Shown here: positions 16,927 through 30,118 of the stretch, in pieces
Numbering within the stretch: the stretch's first letter is position 1
How the letters are laid out: each line of letters begins with the position of its first letter
Sequence record: OQ955832.1
Origin: Escherichia phage vB_EcoS_PJ16
Length of the DNA: 57,756 nt
Reading direction: 5' to 3' (one strand)
The notes under the pieces: generated by a model
What the model was told of the DNA's origin: nothing
Databases searched by the model: none
Seen by the model: the letters and a program-made list of their open reading frames with translations, nothing else
Made by a program: the position numbers and the translations under genes

Positions 16927-17171
16927 TAAGACATTTTGATGTTGGTTTCCAGGCGTGTGAAGTTCTTCGCCAATTCACCGTTTTTCTTTTTAGCACGGTA
17001 TGCAAGACGATATTTCAACATAACGTGAATTTTACCAGACGTCAGACCGAAACACTGATTATCCCAGCCAACTTTATCAAACAGGTTAGTGCTGACTTCC
17101 GAACCTACTGGTACTTTTTCCATCAGACGTTTTTGAAGTTCGTCACCAACTTTTTTCATACAGTCACACAT
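16896..17171 (-). CDS. Hypothetical Cys-containing protein (92 aa)
   Basis: Track ORF 16896-17180 trimmed to ATG; CDC and CPFC motifs. Confidence 0.45.
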   Translation of the reverse strand: MCDCMKKVGDELQKRLMEKVPVGSEVSTNLFDKVGWDNQCFGLTSGKIHVMLKYRLAYRAKKKNGELAKNFTRLETNIKMSYCPFCGEKQE

Positions 17172-17545
17172 TACGCGCACCTCGATAGTCGTCTTAATTT
17201 AACGATCAACCTTGTGACTTTACTCCAGTCAGATTCAGTAAAGTCGTCCACATCTTTAGCCCATAACTCATTAACATGTCGTGGGTTATATGGTTCTTTC
17301 TTAACTGGCTATTTCCGTTTCTTTTTACCCATAGGTTATAACCCAAGTAAAAGTTTAAGCGCACATTTACGAGCATCGTTGACCATTTTTAATAATTCTT
17401 GTGTATCAATGGTGCGATCAGCGTGTTTAATCAGTTCATTCATACTATTAACCTCTTACTATTCCTACGACCACAGGTGCTGCGAAAATCATGAAAGCCA
17501 GTATGTAGTAAATCATCGCATGTCTCCTTTTTCTTCCTGTTAACC

Positions 17546-17592
17546 ACAGGGTAGTTGTGTCGGTGTAATTTGTCAAGAATTATTTTAAAGAT
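17546..17592 (-). promoter_or_regulatory. sigma70-type promoter with UP element (conserved family), left arm of divergent pair
   Basis: -35 TTGACA (17571-17576), 17-bp spacer, TACCCT; inverted copy of promoter at 17898. Confidence 0.55.
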
Positions 17593-17880
17593 ACAGCTAA
17601 TACAGAACGTGTACTAACTGCACATATTTCTACATAGGTTTCATGATTTTGAGTTGCAGCTAATACAGAACGTGTATTAGTAGATCATAGATTCATAGAT
17701 TTCGTCATGTTTATTTTTTAACCAACCTCTCTCTATCTTATTCTTTTTATTATCTTTTTATAATAAAAAGATAATAAACATAATAAACATAGATAAATAG
17801 AAGAGTAGTATAAGTAGTATAAGTTGCTGCAAGTAGGAGAGGTTTAAAAGGTATAGGGAGTCGCATACTTCCCATGAATC
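17581..17880. repeat. AT-rich non-coding repeat hub B
   Basis: No ORFs; direct repeats cagctaatacagaacgtgta x2, catagat repeats; homologous to window-end/start region. Confidence 0.65.
17746..17778. repeat. Perfect palindrome (16-bp arms, 1-nt centre)
   Basis: tttttattatctttttat a ataaaaagataataaaa read directly; core TTATCT...AGATAA also present at window junction. Confidence 0.8.
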
Positions 17881-17928
17881 TATACGTAAAATAATTCTTG
17901 ACGGATTACACCGACACAAATACCCTGT
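17880..17928 (+). promoter_or_regulatory. sigma70-type promoter with UP element (conserved family), right arm of divergent pair
   Basis: TAAAATAATTCTTGACGGATTACACC; -35 17898-17903, TACCCT at 17921-17926. Confidence 0.55.
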
Positions 17929-17956
17929 GGTTAAGAAAACAAGAAGGGTTGAATGT

Positions 17957-18304
17957 ATGAATCCGAACATCAGAGTTGCTACAGACGAATTCATTCGTCG
18001 CGCCCGTAAAGTTCACGGTGATCGTTACGACTACTCATTCAGCATTGTTGAAGATAGTTCCAGCACAGTGGTTATTATTGACTGTGAAACTAACACAGTG
18101 TTTTTCCAGGTTGTCGCTGAACATCTGGACGGTGTTGAACCAGTAACGACTGCTGTTGAACCAGTAACGACTGCTGTTGAATCGATCAAGAATCTTTCTG
18201 AGACATTCGGTAACGTTGCAAACAGCGTGTATCACCAGTGCAATTATTCATCTGAAATGTTAGAATTTAGTCATGTTGAAACAATACGAGGACAATCCCC
18301 GTGA
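17957..18304 (+). CDS. Hypothetical protein with degenerate zinc-ribbon-like N-domain and VEPVTTA repeat
   Basis: Track ORF 17927-18304 trimmed to ATG 17957; DEFIRRARKVHGDRYDYS matches N-domain of 26624-27235 protein but lacks Cys ligands. Confidence 0.45.
   Translation: MNPNIRVATDEFIRRARKVHGDRYDYSFSIVEDSSSTVVIIDCETNTVFFQVVAEHLDGVEPVTTAVEPVTTAVESIKNLSETFGNVANSVYHQCNYSSEMLEFSHVETIRGQSP
18134..18175 (+). repeat. 21-bp tandem repeat x2 (in-frame, VEPVTTA)
   Basis: gttgaaccagtaacgactgct repeated exactly. Confidence 0.8.
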
Positions 18305-18711
18305 TTAACGTAAAAGTTAATAAGGTTGACAACTCACTACGTATGGTATTCGGTTGGGGTAGTATCTGTAAAAAACGTAATCAGGAGACAGGTCAGTTAG
18401 AAATTTACACAGACACGGACAACGAGCAATTTCCCGAGGATGTCACTCTGAAAGCATGGCTGGACTTTATGAATTCTGACCAGCGCATCATGGACAATAT
18501 GCACAATGAACAACCTGTTGGGAAAGTTGTGTTTGCGTTCCCGATGACTGAAGACATTGCGGCAAGTTTTGGGCTGGTTGATAAACTGGATCAGACAGGC
18601 GTCATTGTTGGTACGTTGATAACTGATGACGAAGTTTTGAAAAAGTTTCAGACTGGTGAATATACGGGATATAGTATCGGTGGAACTGCATATTATGAGG
18701 ATGTGGAATAA
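18301..18711 (+). CDS. Hypothetical protein (possible prohead protease)
   Basis: Track ORF with GTG start overlapping upstream stop; location before scaffold-like gene; no catalytic motif confirmed. Confidence 0.35.
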   Translation: MINVKVNKVDNSLRMVFGWGSICKKRNQETGQLEIYTDTDNEQFPEDVTLKAWLDFMNSDQRIMDNMHNEQPVGKVVFAFPMTEDIAASFGLVDKLDQTGVIVGTLITDDEVLKKFQTGEYTGYSIGGTAYYEDVE

Positions 18712-19970
18712 TGCGTACAGATGGTACTAATCATTTACGCCGCGCTAAATCGATGAAGATCGGTTTTCTGTCCGGCGTGACAAAACCTGCTCACGAGGGA
18801 GCAAATGCTCTTGTTCTTAAATCACATTCAGAACCGCCTGCCGTTGCTCTTTTAAAGTCAACATTCAGTGCAGCACTGGCTGAAAAAGAACTTGAACAGA
18901 AAGTTCGCGATTTCCTCTCTAATTCGTGGATGTTGAACGATGCGCTTTATGAAGCAGCAGAGGATATTGCAAAAGATGATTCTATTACCGATAAACAAGC
19001 AGCATTGCGTGACGCGGTAATAGAATATATTATAACGTTGCAACAGGCCGCTGGTATTTCGATGAATAAAGCGAAAGGTGGTAAAACTGAAGACGGTGAA
19101 GTTTTCCCGGCATCTGATTATGCATATGTACCAGATCCAGAAAAACCTTCAACCTGGAAACTTCGTTTAACAGCTACCCCTGGCGGTGAACCTGATGCGC
19201 GTATTGTAGGCGCTGCACTTGCTGCATTAGGTCCGGGTTATCGCGGTAACAAAGTTGAAATCCCTGACGCCGATTTAGCAGGTGTGAAAAACAAAGTCCG
19301 ATCCGCGTGGAAAAAATTACACCCGGACCAGGAAGTACCTCAAGTTTTAAAAACGGCAGAGGAAATCGAAATGTCCGAACTGGAAAAATACAAAGCCCTG
19401 GCTGAGATGAACGACGTCCATAAGGCGTATCATAATTCTCTGCCTGAATCTGATCAGGAAGCATTCCGTAAAATGGATGCGACTGCTCGCGATGCCCTCG
19501 TGACGATGGCTAAACAGGCTGATGAATCGTTTACCACGATTGCGGGTCAGGTTGTTCAGAAATCTGTAGCTGGTCCGATGTATGACGTTCTGAAATCTCA
19601 GGACGAACAACTTCGCAAAGCACAGACTGAAGCGGCACTAGCGAAAGCTAAAGAAACCGTGAACGCTGATTTCGCACATATTCCGGGTGAAATGGTACAG
19701 AAAACCCAGATGGTCATGACTCTTGAGCGTTTACCGGAAGCGGATCGTAACTTCCTGGTTGAAAAACTCAAACAGGCCGATGAACTCTGGAAAGCACGTA
19801 AAGAGCCAGCAGCGCCGAATGGCAGTGGTAAAGGTTCCAGTGCACTGGAAGACATGATCAACGAATGGCTGAAAGCAAATCCGGGTAAAACACGCACCCA
19901 GGCTATGCAGGCCGTTTCTGCAACTAAAAAAGGTCAGGAAGCAATCGAAGCGATGCGAGGTGACGAATAA
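18711..19970 (+). CDS. Capsid scaffolding protein (putative)
   Basis: 419 aa, helical and rich in A/E/K, immediately upstream of decoration-like and capsid genes. Confidence 0.45.
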   Translation: MRTDGTNHLRRAKSMKIGFLSGVTKPAHEGANALVLKSHSEPPAVALLKSTFSAALAEKELEQKVRDFLSNSWMLNDALYEAAEDIAKDDSITDKQAALRDAVIEYIITLQQAAGISMNKAKGGKTEDGEVFPASDYAYVPDPEKPSTWKLRLTATPGGEPDARIVGAALAALGPGYRGNKVEIPDADLAGVKNKVRSAWKKLHPDQEVPQVLKTAEEIEMSELEKYKALAEMNDVHKAYHNSLPESDQEAFRKMDATARDALVTMAKQADESFTTIAGQVVQKSVAGPMYDVLKSQDEQLRKAQTEAALAKAKETVNADFAHIPGEMVQKTQMVMTLERLPEADRNFLVEKLKQADELWKARKEPAAPNGSGKGSSALEDMINEWLKANPGKTRTQAMQAVSATKKGQEAIEAMRGDE

Positions 19971-26235: not shown

Positions 26236-26531
26236 TCGACTTCCTCTTGTGGAACGATAAGACAGACGGGGACGACCTGGACTGGGTTACACAAGGGGCG
26301 GCTGCACGTGGTATATCTGTTCCGGTTGTTGTACAGAAACGACCTAGATTGCGACCTGATGCTATATTTTTTTGGAATGCTTACGTGGATCTGATGGAAG
26401 CTGATTGGGTTGCTTGTGAGCGATATGCACGGGTGTATAACGTTGATGTACAATTCCTATGGAAATTATTGGTAGCGTTGCGGTCTGCACGTGTTGTCGA
26501 GATGAAGAAAAATAAACACAAGCCCGGTTAG
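26226..26531 (+). CDS. Tail assembly chaperone -1 frameshift extension (GT-like)
   Basis: -1 frame opens at 26226 within the heptamer and runs to 26531; track ORF 26247-26531 is the same frame. Confidence 0.5.
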   Translation, partial: KKLIDFLLWNDKTDGDDLDWVTQGAAARGISVPVVVQKRPRLRPDAIFFWNAYVDLMEADWVACERYARVYNVDVQFLWKLLVALRSARVVEMKKNKHKPG

Positions 26532-26544
26532 TTCCGGGCTTTTT
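26519..26544. terminator. Bidirectional rho-independent terminator
   Basis: Stem agcccgg/ccgggct with U-rich tracts on both strands between convergent genes. Confidence 0.65.
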
Positions 26545-26623
26545 CATTTATGTAGTCGAGGATTGCAGGAGAGTATTTAAACCACTCTGTAGCACCGTCA
26601 AAACCTTTAAGACGCGCGTTAAG

Positions 26624-27235
26624 TTAATGATAGACCTTGTGTACCTCTTGTTCCAGTTTATACGCGTCGGCGCCTTGTGGGAACGGATACGACACGAGTT
26701 TAACCACGGGGTGTGGAGTTCGTCGTTGTAGTTGTCGTAGTCGCTGTTTTAAGTCGTTTGTAATACCAACTTTAAGCAGAGTAGGACACTGTTTATCGTC
26801 AGTTAACACGTAGAGCGTTCCGTGTTCTGACGGGTTAAAACCTGTTTCAGCGCACTGGGGGCAACCTTGTTTCATTGAAGTGTGATTGTTCGGAGTCTGT
26901 TCAAACACACCGTGTTCTGAACAAATGATTTTCACAGGAGTACACCGATTAACATACTCCACCAACGAATAGTCGTAACGGTCCCCGTGAACTTCACGGG
27001 CGCGTGTAATAAACTCTTCTGTGGTTAAACGTTGTTGCTTAACTGCACATTGGGGACAACCTCTCCCGCGAACATGATTATTAGGAATCTGTTCAAACAC
27101 ACCATGTTCAGGACAGGTGATCTTCACAGGAGTACACCAATTCACATACACCACTAGCGAGTAATCGTATTTGTGCCCATGAACTTCACGGGCACGTGTG
27201 ATAAATTCTTCTGTGGTTAAACGTTTCCTACTCAT
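26624..27235 (-). CDS. T5orf172 (GIY-YIG-like) domain protein with duplicated zinc-ribbon domains
   Basis: Two tandem copies of EEFITRAREVHG-YDYS...GCPQCA; C-terminal GTLYVLTDD...KVGIT...EQEVH resembles T5orf172 domain. Confidence 0.55.
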   Translation of the reverse strand: MSRKRLTTEEFITRAREVHGHKYDYSLVVYVNWCTPVKITCPEHGVFEQIPNNHVRGRGCPQCAVKQQRLTTEEFITRAREVHGDRYDYSLVEYVNRCTPVKIICSEHGVFEQTPNNHTSMKQGCPQCAETGFNPSEHGTLYVLTDDKQCPTLLKVGITNDLKQRLRQLQRRTPHPVVKLVSYPFPQGADAYKLEQEVHKVYH

Positions 27236-27492: not shown

Positions 27493-27550
27493 TGTCGCTT
27501 TTTAGACCCGTGTTAAACTGTGTACATGCTTCGTGAAAAGGTTAACCACA

Positions 27551-30118
27551 ATGGCACAGTATCCGATTGATATAAAAATAGACACTGGTAACGCTGACAG
27601 AAATCTTAACAGTCTTAATAACCAGTTAGACCAAACAGCTAATTCTGCAAAATCTGCTGCACAAGCGGCAAACACTTTATCAAAAAGTGAACAGCAAGCT
27701 GCAAAATCTGCACAAGTAATGGCGTCAAATACTGGTAACGCTACATCATCTTTAAAGACGATGGCATCTGGCGTAAATCTTGCAACAAACGCCGTTCGTG
27801 GTTTTATGGCAATAGGTGCGGTGTCTTCTGCTATTGAGTTAGGAAAAGCGTTTATTGTTGCGGGTGATGCAGCTAATCAACTCGAAGCTCGTATTGCAAG
27901 ATTGACCGGGAGTACATCATCAGCCAAACAAACATTTCAAACACTCGCGGATATTGCCTCTAAAACAGGTGGTGGTCTTGCTGATACTGAACGTTTATGG
28001 GAAACCTTATCATCATCATTAAAGGATAGCGGTGCAACAAACGATCAGATATTACGATTAACTGAAACACTTCAAAAAATAGGTCGTGTTGGTGGTTCAT
28101 CTGCTGAAGAAATGTCTAACGCATTACGTCAGTTTGGTCAGTCAATTTCATCTGGTGTAGTTCGTGCAGAAGAATTTAACAGCATTGTTGAACAGATGCC
28201 AGAACTGGCAAGACAGATGGCTGCTGGTTTAGGTATTTCAATGGGTGAGTTACGTCAGCAAATGCTGAATGGTGAACTTACAGCGGAACAAGCATTGAAC
28301 GCTATCATTCGTCAAACGCAAAATGTTGATGAAGAATTTAGCAAATTGCCACGGTCTTTAGATCAGGCCACAAATTCGTTATCTGTATCGTTAGCCACGT
28401 TTGTTGCAAGCATGAATGATGTGACTGGAGCATCAAATCTTGCTGTAGACGCTATTGATACACTTACAGGTTTCATCAATAAATTAGGCGATGATTCAAC
28501 AACAACTGCTGATAAATTGTGGTCAATAGCTGGCGTAATATCTAAGTTACAACCTGGTGCTATCGGAGCATCCCTTGCCGATCTGGTCTGGTCAAATGAT
28601 GATGTAAATAATGCAAAAGCGTACAATGACCAGGTTGATAGATTTGTTAAAGCATCTGCTGCTGGATACGAACAAGCTAAAAAAAACCGTGATGCTACAA
28701 AACCTATTTCTATAAAAGGGACAAATGCATCAGACGCGGAAGCACAAAAACAGATTAAAAACCTAAAAGAACAGATCACTTACACCCAGGCGCTTGCTGA
28801 CGGTAACTATGAACTGGCAGCAAGTCAGAAACTGGGTAACAAAGCAACAAAGGAACAGATTGCAGACTACGCCGCGTTGTTGAAACAACAGGCAGAATAT
28901 AAAGAAAATCAAAAAAACCAGAAGAAATCAGCGAGTGCTGAAGCATCTGCTGCTAAACGTGCACAGAAAGAACTGGAACGTAATCAGGCTGCTAACCAGA
29001 AATACCTGAAAACGCTTCAGGATAAAATCAATGCTGGTAATTATGATGTTCAGTTAGCCCGCGAACAGGTTCAGATTGCTTTAACACAGGGATCGTCTGT
29101 TGAGCAACTTACAGCAACGTATCAGAAAGAATATCAGGTACGTCAACAGTTAACGCTGGCATCACAACAGGCAGAAGCACAGTCACGACTGAATAAAGAC
29201 GCGACTGATGCTGAACGTGCTGCCGTTGATGCGCATGTGGCTGCGTTGCAACGTCAACAGCAGATAGCACAGTTAAGCGCAGATGTAAAACAAGTTGACA
29301 TTGATGTGAAAGCACAGTTGAACCCGTATCAATCACAAATTGATCAGGTTAATCAACAGGAAGCAACACGTCTTAGTATTACCCAAGCTGCCCGTGAACA
29401 AGATTTAATCAACGAGCAACAATACCAGGATATGAAAACGCAGATTCAACAGGCTGGTGAACAAGCCCGTACGAATCTTGCAAATGCTAACTACAGCTTG
29501 TTGCTACAATCCAGTGCTGATTTTTTGGGTCAAATGGCTGCTGGTCTGGCACAATCTAAAGGTGAGCAATCAAACGCGTATAAAGCGATGTTTGCACTGT
29601 CTAAAGCCTTTAGTATTGCACAGGCAAGCATTAACCTGTGGACAGCAGTTAGCCAGGCTATGGCGTTGCCGTTCCCGGCGAATATTCCATTCATTGCACA
29701 GGCTTTAGCATACGGAACAAGCGTGTTAGGTAATATTCAGTCTGTGGCTGCAACAGGTTTTGCAACGGGTGGTTATGTTAAAGGACCGGGTACAGGTCAG
29801 AGTGACAGTATAAACGCACGTTTGAGTAATGGTGAATTTGTCAGCACCAAACAGGCTACCAGTCGTTATCGTAGCACTCTGGAAGCAATGAATCGTGGGA
29901 CATACACCCCCGGGTCTGAAGGTGGTTCATCACCTAATATTCAGGTTCATAACTACGGTGGTGAACGTGTTCAGGTGAAACAAGGATTAACACGGGATGA
30001 TGTAGTGCTTATCATAGGTGAAGAATTCCCACGACAATCAGCGGCACAATGGAATGACCCGTACAGTCAGACGAATAAAGCATTCAGGTCTAACTATGAT
30101 GCGAACAGGAAAATATAA
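27551..30118 (+). CDS. Tail tape measure protein
   Basis: Track ORF 27533-30118; 856-861 aa, helical, Q/A-rich; position after chaperone pair. Confidence 0.8.
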   Translation: MAQYPIDIKIDTGNADRNLNSLNNQLDQTANSAKSAAQAANTLSKSEQQAAKSAQVMASNTGNATSSLKTMASGVNLATNAVRGFMAIGAVSSAIELGKAFIVAGDAANQLEARIARLTGSTSSAKQTFQTLADIASKTGGGLADTERLWETLSSSLKDSGATNDQILRLTETLQKIGRVGGSSAEEMSNALRQFGQSISSGVVRAEEFNSIVEQMPELARQMAAGLGISMGELRQQMLNGELTAEQALNAIIRQTQNVDEEFSKLPRSLDQATNSLSVSLATFVASMNDVTGASNLAVDAIDTLTGFINKLGDDSTTTADKLWSIAGVISKLQPGAIGASLADLVWSNDDVNNAKAYNDQVDRFVKASAAGYEQAKKNRDATKPISIKGTNASDAEAQKQIKNLKEQITYTQALADGNYELAASQKLGNKATKEQIADYAALLKQQAEYKENQKNQKKSASAEASAAKRAQKELERNQAANQKYLKTLQDKINAGNYDVQLAREQVQIALTQGSSVEQLTATYQKEYQVRQQLTLASQQAEAQSRLNKDATDAERAAVDAHVAALQRQQQIAQLSADVKQVDIDVKAQLNPYQSQIDQVNQQEATRLSITQAAREQDLINEQQYQDMKTQIQQAGEQARTNLANANYSLLLQSSADFLGQMAAGLAQSKGEQSNAYKAMFALSKAFSIAQASINLWTAVSQAMALPFPANIPFIAQALAYGTSVLGNIQSVAATGFATGGYVKGPGTGQSDSINARLSNGEFVSTKQATSRYRSTLEAMNRGTYTPGSEGGSSPNIQVHNYGGERVQVKQGLTRDDVVLIIGEEFPRQSAAQWNDPYSQTNKAFRSNYDANRKI

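What the first reader, a model, noticed from the sequence alone, without database searches (positions are those of the whole stretch)
17957..18304. Degenerate paralog of the zinc-ribbon domain lacking Cys ligands, fused to a VEPVTTA repeat
DEFIRRARKVHGDRYDYS at the start of this ORF matches the N-domain of the 26624-27235 protein, but the downstream CxxC ligands are replaced. It is followed by a perfect 21-bp tandem duplication. This suggests a decayed or repurposed copy of a homing-endonuclease-associated domain at the head of the structural operon.
Basis: seen in the sequence. Interest (0 to 1): 0.4.

Follow-up and report, generated by a model that had tools for sequence, protein, structure and literature searches.

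The report
Decayed homing-endonuclease stub with variable repeat
This small phage gene is the leftover front end of a selfish homing-endonuclease gene that landed just ahead of the head-assembly genes; it has lost its zinc-binding residues and nuclease, carries a 7-amino-acid repeat present in 1 to 10 copies among sister phages, and is an ordinary example of such genes decaying.

Summary
ORF 17957-18304 (+, 115 aa) has an N-terminal 54-59 aa segment homologous to both DUF723/CapR-type zinc-finger repeats of the T5orf172 endonuclease gene at 26624-27235 (46-49% identity, E 1e-12; 51 bits against a profile of 239 such repeats). It lacks the zinc ligands: 307 of 314 repeats in real endonucleases have all four, whereas this one has one, and none in most relatives. 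A perfect 21-bp tandem repeat follows.

The window is Escherichia phage vB_EcoS_PJ16, a 9NA/Sasha-like phage. The ORF is a 351-bp insertion plus a 35-bp promoter core in the leader of the prohead-protease gene. Sasha, 9NA and Carvaje lack it. Two Vibrio relatives carry full-length T5orf172 endonuclease genes in the same gap.

The heptad VEPVTTA occurs in 1-10 copies across 98 protein variants. The ORF is always intact but weakly constrained (13 synonymous/20 non-synonymous variants against 32/7 in the protease). It is acidic, and its C-terminal half is an orphan sequence predicted to be disordered.

Best reading: the 5' relic of a homing endonuclease, no longer DNA-binding, kept open largely because it now forms the leader of an essential gene. 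Repurposing is not excluded. Interest is low to moderate.

The parts
17886..17934 (+). Rightward sigma-70-type promoter and leader of the ORF. TAAAATAATTC (UP-like), -35 TTGACG at 17898-17903, 17-nt spacer, -10 TACCCT at 17921-17926. Bases 17886-17920 (35 bp) are absent from Sasha, 9NA and Carvaje. Also the right arm of a 48-nt inverted repeat.
   Evidence: One of 12 copies of TAAAATAATTCTTGACnnATTACA + 17 nt + TAnnnT in the window. Present before the ORF in 13 of the 14 ORF-carrying relatives examined (the L173 variant has it further upstream, before an inserted pRha gene). No rightward copy in Sasha, 9NA or Carvaje. Inverted repeat. Indel boundaries. Promoter function is inferred, not shown.
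17936..18286 (+). 351-bp inserted segment relative to Sasha, 9NA and Carvaje. It carries the Shine-Dalgarno AAGGG (17944-17948), the ATG (17957) and codons 1-110 of the ORF.
   Evidence: With 17886-17920 and 17936-18286 removed, the window aligns collinearly with the protease leaders of Sasha, 9NA and Carvaje (86-90 identical of 130-133 columns). Boundaries are good to a few bases.
17957..18304 (+). The ORF itself: 115 aa, acidic (pI 4.7, net charge -9).
   Evidence: Annotated as a CDS in Bas82, AVIO78A and PDP46, the last as 'DUF723 family protein'. 100% identical to a protein of Escherichia phage vB_EcoS_PJ16.
17957..18133 (+). Codons 1-59: zinc-less DUF723/CapR-type module. Helix FIRRARKVHG, strand YDYS, then a hairpin with C-E-T-N in place of C-x-x-H. 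It ends at HLDG, just before where GCPxC would be.
   Evidence: BLASTP. Custom HMM 51 bits. It matches the first repeat of full endonucleases best. AlphaFold2 pLDDT 80-92 for residues 1-59. Ligand census. Net charge -5 against +1.6 (sd 2.3) for 239 endonuclease repeats.
18133..18181 (+). 21-bp tandem repeat TGTTGAACCAGTAACGACTGC, 2.3 copies, encoding VEPVTTA twice plus VE. It is an in-frame VNTR.
   Evidence: TRF 100% match. Unique in the window. 2 or 3 copies in five GenBank relatives. 1-10 copies in 98 protein variants. Unit variants show higher-order duplications. The other two frames of the unit contain stop codons.
18176..18286 (+). Codons 74-110: orphan C-terminal tail (VESIKNLSETFGNVANSVYHQCNYSSEMLEFSHVETI), predicted to be disordered.
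   Evidence: pLDDT below 50. No credible homologue outside the family in 1.84 billion representatives. Resemblance to the start of a second DUF723 repeat is not significant.
18287..18304 (+). Codons 111-115 (RGQSP) plus the TGA stop. This is read out of the native protease leader and contains the protease Shine-Dalgarno GAGGA (18288-18292). The stop overlaps the protease start (GTGA).
   Evidence: Aligns with CGAGGAA..ATGATT of Sasha, 9NA and Carvaje. The start is GTG in all 15 ORF-carrying loci and ATG in the three phages without the ORF.
18301..18711 (+). XkdF-type prohead protease gene, first conserved gene of the head operon and downstream neighbour of the ORF.
   Evidence: Pfam PF14550 at E 9e-8. 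90-99% identical in 9NA, Sasha and Carvaje-type phages. dN/dS 0.04.
26624..27235 (-). The paralogue named in the finding: a T5orf172 homing-endonuclease gene with two intact C-H-C-C DUF723 repeats. It is itself damaged, by a premature stop and the loss of one repeat.
   Evidence: Pfam DUF723, MUG113 and T5orf172. PHROG 681 'endonuclease' at E 1e-58. An intact 303-aa homologue in a relative, 81% identical, has three repeats and 31 more C-terminal residues. Those residues are still readable after the TAA in the window.
17540..17587 (-). Leftward promoter and leader, the left arm of the 48-nt inverted repeat (94% complementary to 17887-17934).
   Evidence: The extended arm occurs only in a subset of relatives.

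Best explanation
The ORF is the 5'-terminal relic of a T5orf172-type (GIY-YIG-like) homing-endonuclease gene.

Origin. An endonuclease cassette, with a copy of the phage's standard early-type promoter, its own ribosome-binding site and its start codon, entered the leader of the prohead-protease gene in the ancestor of the E. coli-infecting Sasha/9NA-like phages. Everything after the first DNA-binding module was later lost or scrambled, including the remaining zinc-finger repeats and the nuclease.

Present state. What remains is one DUF723/CapR-type module that has lost its four zinc ligands and become acidic, so it most probably no longer binds DNA. It is followed by a slippage-prone 21-bp repeat and an orphan tail. 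The tail runs into the native protease leader and stops at the TGA inside the protease start (A/G)TGA.

Mechanism today. The ORF is probably transcribed from its promoter and translated as the first cistron of the head operon. The frame probably stays open because its last codons contain the protease ribosome-binding site and its stop overlaps the protease GTG start. Premature termination or frameshifts would then disturb expression of an essential gene. A useful activity of the protein is not required by this explanation. The repeat changes length by replication slippage or unequal recombination. It is tolerated because 21 bp keeps the frame and the region is unstructured.

Shown: homology, ligand loss, insertion status, copy-number variation, relaxed constraint.
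Inferred: promoter use, translation, coupling to the protease, loss of DNA binding, and the order of events.
For: - Homology to the endonuclease DNA-binding repeats. The best match is always to the first (N-terminal) repeat of full-length endonucleases, and the ORF begins at the same offset from the motif as they do.
- No nuclease domain.
- Zinc ligands: 0-1 of 4, against 4 of 4 in 307 of 314 repeats from 88 endonuclease genes.
- In the related CapR protein, changing the four Cys to Ser abolishes DNA binding (PMC8096241).
- Net charge of the module is -5, against +1.6 (sd 2.3) for the family.
- The ORF is an insertion. Sasha, 9NA and Carvaje have an uninterrupted protease leader.
- The same gap holds full T5orf172 genes in Vibrio phages 1.088.O and 1.171.O. 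T5orf172 endonuclease genes are known to cluster next to capsid operons and to decay by frameshifts, stops and in-frame deletions (PMC10448857).
- The window's other endonuclease gene is also decaying.
- Constraint is relaxed: 13 synonymous/20 non-synonymous against 32/7 in the adjacent protease (Fisher p 2.5e-4). dN/dS is 0.37 against 0.04.
- The tail has no homologues and is predicted to be disordered.
- The last five codons and the stop come from the native leader, with the Shine-Dalgarno sequence inside the ORF and a GTGA overlap.
- The promoter belongs to a 12-member family and accompanies the ORF in 13 of the 14 ORF-carrying relatives examined.
Against: - The ORF is intact in all 15 DNA loci and all 98 protein variants. 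About 3.2 nonsense variants would be expected if it were unconstrained (P about 0.04).
- Synonymous changes are somewhat enriched over neutral expectation (p 0.014-0.087 depending on transition bias).
- Most non-ligand consensus residues of the module (F, A, HG, YDYS, F.Q, H..G) are retained, and AlphaFold2 models it confidently.

These points fit a protein with some residual or new function as well as they fit selection on the leader role.

- No close full-length ancestor was found; the best is about 52% identity. The deletion history is therefore inferred.
- Expression was not measured.
Confidence: 0.66

Rival explanations
1. Repurposed (domesticated) protein. The zinc-free module plus an acidic, length-variable, disordered tail has a new job in the phage. 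Examples would be a decoy or immunity factor against related T5orf172 endonucleases or CapR-like repressors, or a modulator of head assembly co-expressed with protease and scaffold.
For: - Always an open frame in 98 variants and 15 loci, with a nonsense deficit and dN/dS 0.37, below 1.
- The core fold residues are conserved, and residues 1-59 are modelled with pLDDT 80-92.
- It has its own promoter and ribosome-binding site.
- There is precedent: the satellite protein CapR is an endonuclease DNA-binding domain domesticated to act on a capsid-operon promoter (PMC8096241).
- The strongly acidic character is unusual for the family.
Against: - Constraint is nine-fold weaker than in the neighbouring gene and only borderline different from neutral.
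- All zinc ligands needed for the family's known activity are gone.
- Half of the protein is an orphan sequence with no predicted structure.
- Length varies from 108 to 171 aa with no sign of a preferred size beyond 2-3 copies.
- Sister genera lack the gene entirely.
- ORF integrity is equally explained by its role as the protease leader.
Confidence: 0.22
2. The functional element is the DNA or RNA, not the protein. The 21-bp repeats (two helical turns) would act as iteron-like protein-binding sites or as an RNA element tuning head-operon expression, and the reading frame would be incidental.
For: - Tandem 21-mers inside a coding region resemble iterons. In phage lambda the origin lies within gene O (my own knowledge).
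- The repeats lie between an early-type promoter and the late genes.
Against: - Copy number ranges from 1 to 10 among near-identical phages, which is not expected for a tuned binding array.
- The unit occurs nowhere else in the genome.
- No Rfam match.
- Local hairpins are not better than shuffles.
- Sister genera lack it.
Confidence: 0.05
3. Not a gene at all: a chance open frame in an inserted, non-coding remnant.
For: - Weak constraint.
- Orphan tail.
- The stop codon is supplied fortuitously by the protease start.
Against: - A conserved ATG with AAGGG 8 nt upstream.
- A promoter of the phage's own family directly upstream.
- The frame is the one that preserves the endonuclease domain.
- The frame is open in every one of 15 loci and 98 variants.
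Confidence: 0.05

Closest known systems
T5orf172 (GIY-YIG-like) phage homing endonucleases with repeated DUF723/CapR/DUF4379 zinc-finger DNA-binding modules (Barth et al. 2023, PMC10448857)
   Same: - The N-terminal module is homologous (51 bits against a profile of 239 such repeats) and starts at the same offset from the N-terminus.
- The gene is variably present among related phages.
- It sits beside an essential capsid-morphogenesis operon.
- The same slot is occupied by full-length family members in Vibrio relatives.
   Different: - No T5orf172 nuclease domain.
- Only one module, where full endonucleases have 2-6.
- All four zinc ligands are lost.
- It is acidic rather than basic.
- It is followed by a heptad VNTR and an orphan tail.
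CapR of the Vibrio cholerae satellite PLE, a domesticated endonuclease DNA-binding domain that represses the ICP1 capsid operon (Netter et al. 2021, PMC8096241)
   Same: - A stand-alone derivative of the same kind of endonuclease DNA-binding module, without a nuclease.
- It is physically associated with a capsid-operon promoter region.
   Different: - CapR keeps CxxC...CxC and needs them for DNA binding, whereas this ORF has none.
- CapR is encoded by a satellite and acts in trans on the helper phage. This ORF is in the phage itself, in cis.
- No binding or repression has been shown here.
Degenerating homing-endonuclease genes: the invasion, fixation, decay and loss cycle of Goddard and Burt (my own knowledge), and frameshifted or deleted endonuclease genes in ICP1 (PMC10448857)
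   Same: - Truncation.
- Loss of catalytic and binding residues.
- Relaxed constraint.
- Presence or absence differs between sister lineages.
- A second decaying endonuclease gene lies in the same genome.
   Different: - The remnant is uniformly retained as an open frame in every genome seen.
- It has become the first cistron and leader of an essential operon.
In-frame minisatellites (VNTRs) in coding regions
   Same: - Perfect head-to-tail 21-bp units.
- Copy number of 1-10 among genomes about 95% identical.
- Higher-order duplication patterns typical of slippage or unequal exchange.
   Different: It lies in a small lytic-phage gene of no known function. There is no evidence that length variation is adaptive.

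Membership tests
DUF723 / CapR-type treble-clef zinc-finger module | N-terminal helix plus strand motif F-I-x-x-A-x-x-x-H-G-x-x-Y-D-Y-S | tested here: met
   FIRRARKVHGDRYDYS at residues 12-27. BLASTP E 1e-12. Custom HMM 51 bits.
DUF723 / CapR-type treble-clef zinc-finger module | First zinc knuckle C-x-x-H (or C-x-x-C) in the beta-hairpin | tested here: not met
   C-E-T-N in the window and R-E-T-N in 78 of 96 scored variants. 307 of 314 family repeats have C-H-C-C.
DUF723 / CapR-type treble-clef zinc-finger module | Second zinc knuckle G-C-P-x-C | tested here: not met
   The profile alignment ends at position 51 of 61. VEPVTTA repeats occupy the place of the knuckle.
DUF723 / CapR-type treble-clef zinc-finger module | Reaches the Pfam gathering score for PF05265, PF21817 or PF14311 | tested here: not met
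   hmmscan finds no Pfam family at E <= 1. PHROG 4605 at only E 0.0027. Precomputed tables do list PF05265 for some orthologues, and PDP46 annotates 'DUF723 family protein'.
DUF723 / CapR-type treble-clef zinc-finger module | Sequence-specific DNA binding dependent on zinc | not testable with these tools
   Predicted to be lost, from the absence of ligands, a net charge of -5 and the CapR Cys-to-Ser result (PMC8096241).
T5orf172 homing endonuclease | C-terminal T5orf172/MUG113 (GIY-YIG-like) nuclease domain | tested here: not met
   No hit in Pfam or PHROGs. The protein ends 56 residues after the module, and that part has no homologues.
T5orf172 homing endonuclease | Sporadic presence among related genomes, inserted next to essential genes | tested here: met
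   Present in the E. coli clade and absent in Sasha, 9NA and Carvaje. It lies upstream of the prohead protease. Full endonuclease genes occupy the same gap in Vibrio phages.
T5orf172 homing endonuclease | Cleaves the empty allele and homes into it | not testable with these tools
   Needs co-infection or cleavage assays. Impossible for this ORF, which has no nuclease.
CapR-like domesticated regulator | Stand-alone endonuclease-derived DNA-binding domain that binds a capsid-operon promoter | tested here: inconclusive
   The stand-alone architecture and the location fit. The cysteines shown to be essential in CapR are absent. Binding was not tested.
Coding-region VNTR | Head-to-tail repeats whose copy number differs among close relatives while the frame is kept | tested here: met
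   TRF. 1-10 copies in 98 variants. DNA units in 15 loci.

The most novel reading that the evidence does not exclude
The relic has been domesticated into a zinc-free, acidic, intrinsically disordered protein whose length is tuned by a contingency-type VNTR. It would be expressed from an early-type promoter ahead of the head genes. It could protect the phage by occupying or mimicking the target of related T5orf172 endonucleases or satellite CapR-like capsid repressors, or it could modulate protease and scaffold function. That would make it a phage-encoded counterpart of satellite CapR that works without DNA binding.
Probability: 0.1. Interest if true: 0.6.

Novelty: new member of a known kind. 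Interest (0 to 1): 0.27.

Why it matters
It gives a clear snapshot of a late stage in the life cycle of a homing endonuclease in a lytic phage. The nuclease is gone, the DNA-binding module has been stripped of its zinc site, and the stub has been absorbed into the leader of an essential operon, so it cannot easily be lost.

Three practical consequences follow:
- It explains an unannotated 'hypothetical protein' (sometimes labelled DUF723) in E. coli Sasha/9NA-like phages.
- It marks the gap upstream of the prohead protease as a recurrent endonuclease landing site.
- It identifies a 21-bp VNTR with 1-10 copies that could serve as a strain-typing marker for these phages.

It does not by itself reveal a new mechanism.

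Tried and rejected
1. The C-terminal tail as a decayed second DUF723 repeat. BLASTP and blastx give collinear alignments to the start of the next repeat in some endonucleases. The profile scores it at about 1 bit. Shuffling tests give p 0.06 for the window tail and 0.65 for the family consensus tail. Not supported.

2. The tail or repeat as a frame-shifted remnant of endonuclease coding sequence. blastx in all three forward frames against 88 endonucleases found nothing better than E 0.2.

3. A tail homologue elsewhere. phmmer against 1.84 billion representatives gave only P0101, and the PDB search gave chain 8h2i 'P22'. Both scores are sums of ten or more hits of 5-8 bits each to an N-rich repeat. 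Judged spurious.

4. Fold search of the AlphaFold2 model against the PDB: no match with E <= 0.001. PDB sequence searches were uninformative.

5. Rfam on 17000-19000: nothing.

6. A terminator-like hairpin inside the ORF (18081-18099) and a hairpin over the protease Shine-Dalgarno sequence (18285-18303). Neither is better than shuffles.

7. The complete E. coli genome collection has no copy, so there is no prophage or host origin.

8. The metagenome scan was swamped by the generic HGDRYDYS pattern and yielded only one extra orthologue.

9. Direct descent from the window's own endonuclease gene. Rejected: 46-49% identity, no closer than to endonucleases of Vibrio and Klebsiella phages that sit in other contexts.

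10. Literature searches for 9NA promoters and AVIO78A found nothing on this gene.

Full report
**Identity of the window.** The ORF product is 100% identical to a protein of Escherichia phage vB_EcoS_PJ16, on a contig of exactly the window's length. The region is 94-97% identical to five E. coli phages: Bas82, AVIO78A, PDP46, Sashavirus 536P12 and BDX09P1. The neighbouring genes are the head-morphogenesis (SPP1 gp7-like) gene, a block of small leftward genes, and then rightward an XkdF-type prohead protease, a 419-aa protein, the scaffold and the major capsid protein. The finding therefore sits at the head of the capsid operon of a 9NA/Sasha-like siphovirus.

**The observation.** The ORF runs from ATG 17957 to TGA 18302-18304 and encodes 115 aa.
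- BLASTP against the 203-aa product of 26624-27235(-) gives two alignments, one to each repeat of that protein: 25/54 and 25/51 identities, E 1e-12 and 5e-12. The similarity spans the whole module, not only DEFIRRARKVHGDRYDYS.
- I built a profile from 239 distinct repeats taken from endonuclease genes in unrelated viral contigs. It scores residues 9-59 at 51 bits (E 7e-18) and aligns them to profile positions 2-51 of 61, ending just before the GCPxC knuckle.
- The window contains only three such segments: this one and the two in the 203-aa gene.
- The 203-aa protein is a T5orf172/MUG113 endonuclease with DUF723, DUF4379 and CapR-type zinc fingers.
- The tandem repeat is 18133-18181, period 21, 2.3 copies, 100% matches, and encodes VEPVTTA-VEPVTTA-VE.

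**Zinc ligands.** In 88 endonuclease genes I found 314 repeats. Of these, 307 have all four ligands (C-H-C-C), six have three, and the only one with fewer is cut off by a contig end. The ORF has C-E-T-N at the first knuckle and nothing at the second. The remaining Cys43 is peculiar to a minority: Arg in 78 of 96 scored variants and in all five GenBank relatives. The module is also unusually acidic, with net charge -5 against +1.6 (sd 2.3) for the family; only 0.8% of repeats are at or below -4. In CapR, a characterised protein made of this kind of module, mutating the four cysteines abolishes DNA binding (PMC8096241). Loss of the ancestral DNA-binding activity is therefore the likely state. 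This is an inference.

**It is an insertion in an endonuclease landing site.**
- Sasha, 9NA and Carvaje encode the same protease (90-94% identical) but have no ORF upstream.
- Removing two window segments, 17886-17920 (35 bp) and 17936-18286 (351 bp), makes the window collinear with their protease leaders, with 86-90 of 130-133 columns identical.
- The 351-bp piece carries the Shine-Dalgarno sequence, the ATG and codons 1-110.
- Codons 111-115 (RGQSP) and the stop are read from the native leader CGAGGA...(A/G)TGATT. That stretch includes the protease Shine-Dalgarno GAGGA, and the TGA lies within the protease start.
- The protease start is GTG in all 15 ORF-bearing loci and ATG in the three phages without the ORF.
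- In more distant relatives the same gap holds full-length T5orf172 genes: NVP1088O_24 (301 aa, immediately upstream of the protease, same strand) and NVP1171O_22 (opposite strand).
- The ORF matches the first repeat of such proteins best (53, 42 and 36 bits; 52, 30 and 28 bits). It also starts at the same offset from the motif as they do. Both points fit a retained 5' end.
- Published work shows that T5orf172 endonuclease genes cluster beside capsid, terminase and replication genes, and decay through frameshifts, stops and in-frame deletions (PMC10448857).

**Promoter.** The 35-bp piece supplies TAAAATAATTCTTGACGG, placing TTGACG 17 nt upstream of TACCCT. The window has 12 copies of TAAAATAATTCTTGACnnATTACA, each followed after 17 nt by TAnnnT (20 matches to the 10-mer at up to one mismatch, against 5.7 expected). 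A rightward copy directly precedes the ORF in 13 of the 14 ORF-bearing relatives examined. In the fourteenth (L173) it sits further upstream, ahead of an inserted pRha gene. The three phages without the ORF have no rightward copy. The ORF thus came with, or acquired, a promoter of the phage's own early type, as endonuclease cassettes often do. Function of the promoter is inferred only.

**The repeat is a hypervariable VNTR.** Among 98 distinct protein variants, lengths are 108, 115, 122, 129, 136, 143, 157 and 171 aa. Among the 96 variants that could be scored, that is 1 (n=1), 2 (39), 3 (34), 4 (11), 5 (6), 6 (3), 8 (1) and 10 (1) heptads, with nearly invariant flanks. At the DNA level the units differ at a few positions (CCA/CCG, ACG/ACC, GCT/ACT). 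They show higher-order patterns such as (G,G,C)x2 and A,B,B,A,B,A,B,B,A,A, which is typical of slippage or unequal exchange. The other two frames of the unit contain stops, and the unit occurs nowhere else in the genome.

**Selection.**
- In 15 DNA loci the non-repeat part of the ORF has 13 synonymous and 20 non-synonymous variants, against 32 and 7 in the protease (Fisher p 2.5e-4).
- Mean pairwise dN/dS, computed on the first 11 of those loci, is 0.37 against 0.04.
- Against neutral expectation the excess of synonymous changes is borderline, p 0.014-0.087 depending on transition bias.
- No variant has a stop or frameshift. About 3.2 nonsense variants would be expected from 64 missense events, P about 0.04, with the caveat that the variants come from gene calls.

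The frame is therefore kept open under weak constraint. Because the ORF's 3' end contains the protease ribosome-binding site and overlaps its start, such constraint need not reflect a function of the protein.

**The rest of the protein.**
- AlphaFold2 models residues 1-59 with pLDDT 80-92 (helix 3-20, hairpin 37-52, helix 53-58) and residues 60-115 below 50.
- The tail has no credible homologue in 1.84 billion representatives. The hits to P0101 and to PDB 8h2i are sums of many 5-8-bit matches to an N-rich repeat.
- A resemblance of the tail to the start of a second DUF723 repeat is not significant.

**Conclusion.** The most economical account is a homing-endonuclease relic that has been absorbed into the leader of the head operon. 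A domesticated function, along the lines of CapR but without zinc or DNA binding, cannot be excluded and is the only route to real novelty. The relationship to DUF723 is already recorded in some database annotations. The new points are the insertion anatomy, the complete ligand loss, the VNTR range and the measure of constraint.

Noticed in passing
window 26531-27235 (-): The 'intact' T5orf172 endonuclease gene used as the reference paralogue is itself damaged. Compared with an 81%-identical, 303-aa homologue on a relative's contig (L065), it lacks the middle of three DUF723 repeats, and a TAA at 26624-26626 replaces a Glu. The last 31 codons (LNARLKGFDGATEWFKYSPAILDYINEKARN) remain readable in frame after the stop.
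   Followed up: yes
window 1529, 3804, 6543, 10683, 12905, 14047, 17581, 17893, 27480, 44567, 50543, 52301: Twelve copies of a highly conserved promoter-like element, TAAAATAATTCTTGACnnATTACA followed after 17 nt by TAnnnT. Several lie just upstream of a ribosome-binding site and start codon. One (27480, - strand) precedes the 59-aa membrane-protein gene and the endonuclease gene embedded antisense among the tail genes.
   Followed up: partly
window 17540-17587 and 17887-17934: A 48-nt inverted repeat (94% complementary). It is two divergent copies of that promoter that also share about 24 nt of leader. The extended left arm is present only in some relatives (window, BDX09P1, L171, L014). Others have a Sasha-like leftward leader, which indicates mosaic exchange of the leftward gene block.
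   Followed up: partly
window 17588-17886: A 299-bp AT-rich spacer between the divergent promoters; the wider intergenic stretch 17577-17956 has 30% GC. It holds a 33-nt direct repeat (17584-17616 and 17647-17679, 85%) and a near-perfect 24-nt palindrome (17738-17786). It could be a regulatory or origin-like region.
   Followed up: no
window 17025-17576 versus L001 1623-2402: The leftward genes next to the intergenic region differ between PJ16 and Bas82. Bas82_0030 and Bas82_0031 have no tblastn match in the window, which instead has only short ORFs there.
   Followed up: partly
L173 1893-2498: One metagenomic relative has a 201-aa Phage_pRha-domain gene inserted directly upstream of the ORF, which then starts two codons earlier. 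This is further evidence that the gap is a hot spot for insertions.
   Followed up: no
window 18301-18303: The prohead protease starts with GTG, overlapping the ORF stop (GTGA), in all ORF-bearing phages. It starts with ATG in Sasha, 9NA and Carvaje. A weak hairpin (-4.9 kcal/mol, z -1.75) can pair the protease Shine-Dalgarno sequence with the CCCC just before the GTG.
   Followed up: partly
L178 2492-3598 and L006 1507-2382: Klebsiella phage VLCpiS13e and Salmonella phage LPST10 carry T5orf172 endonuclease genes antisense next to the tape-measure gene. The window's 203-aa endonuclease gene has the same placement, next to 27533-30118. This looks like a second recurrent landing site.
   Followed up: no
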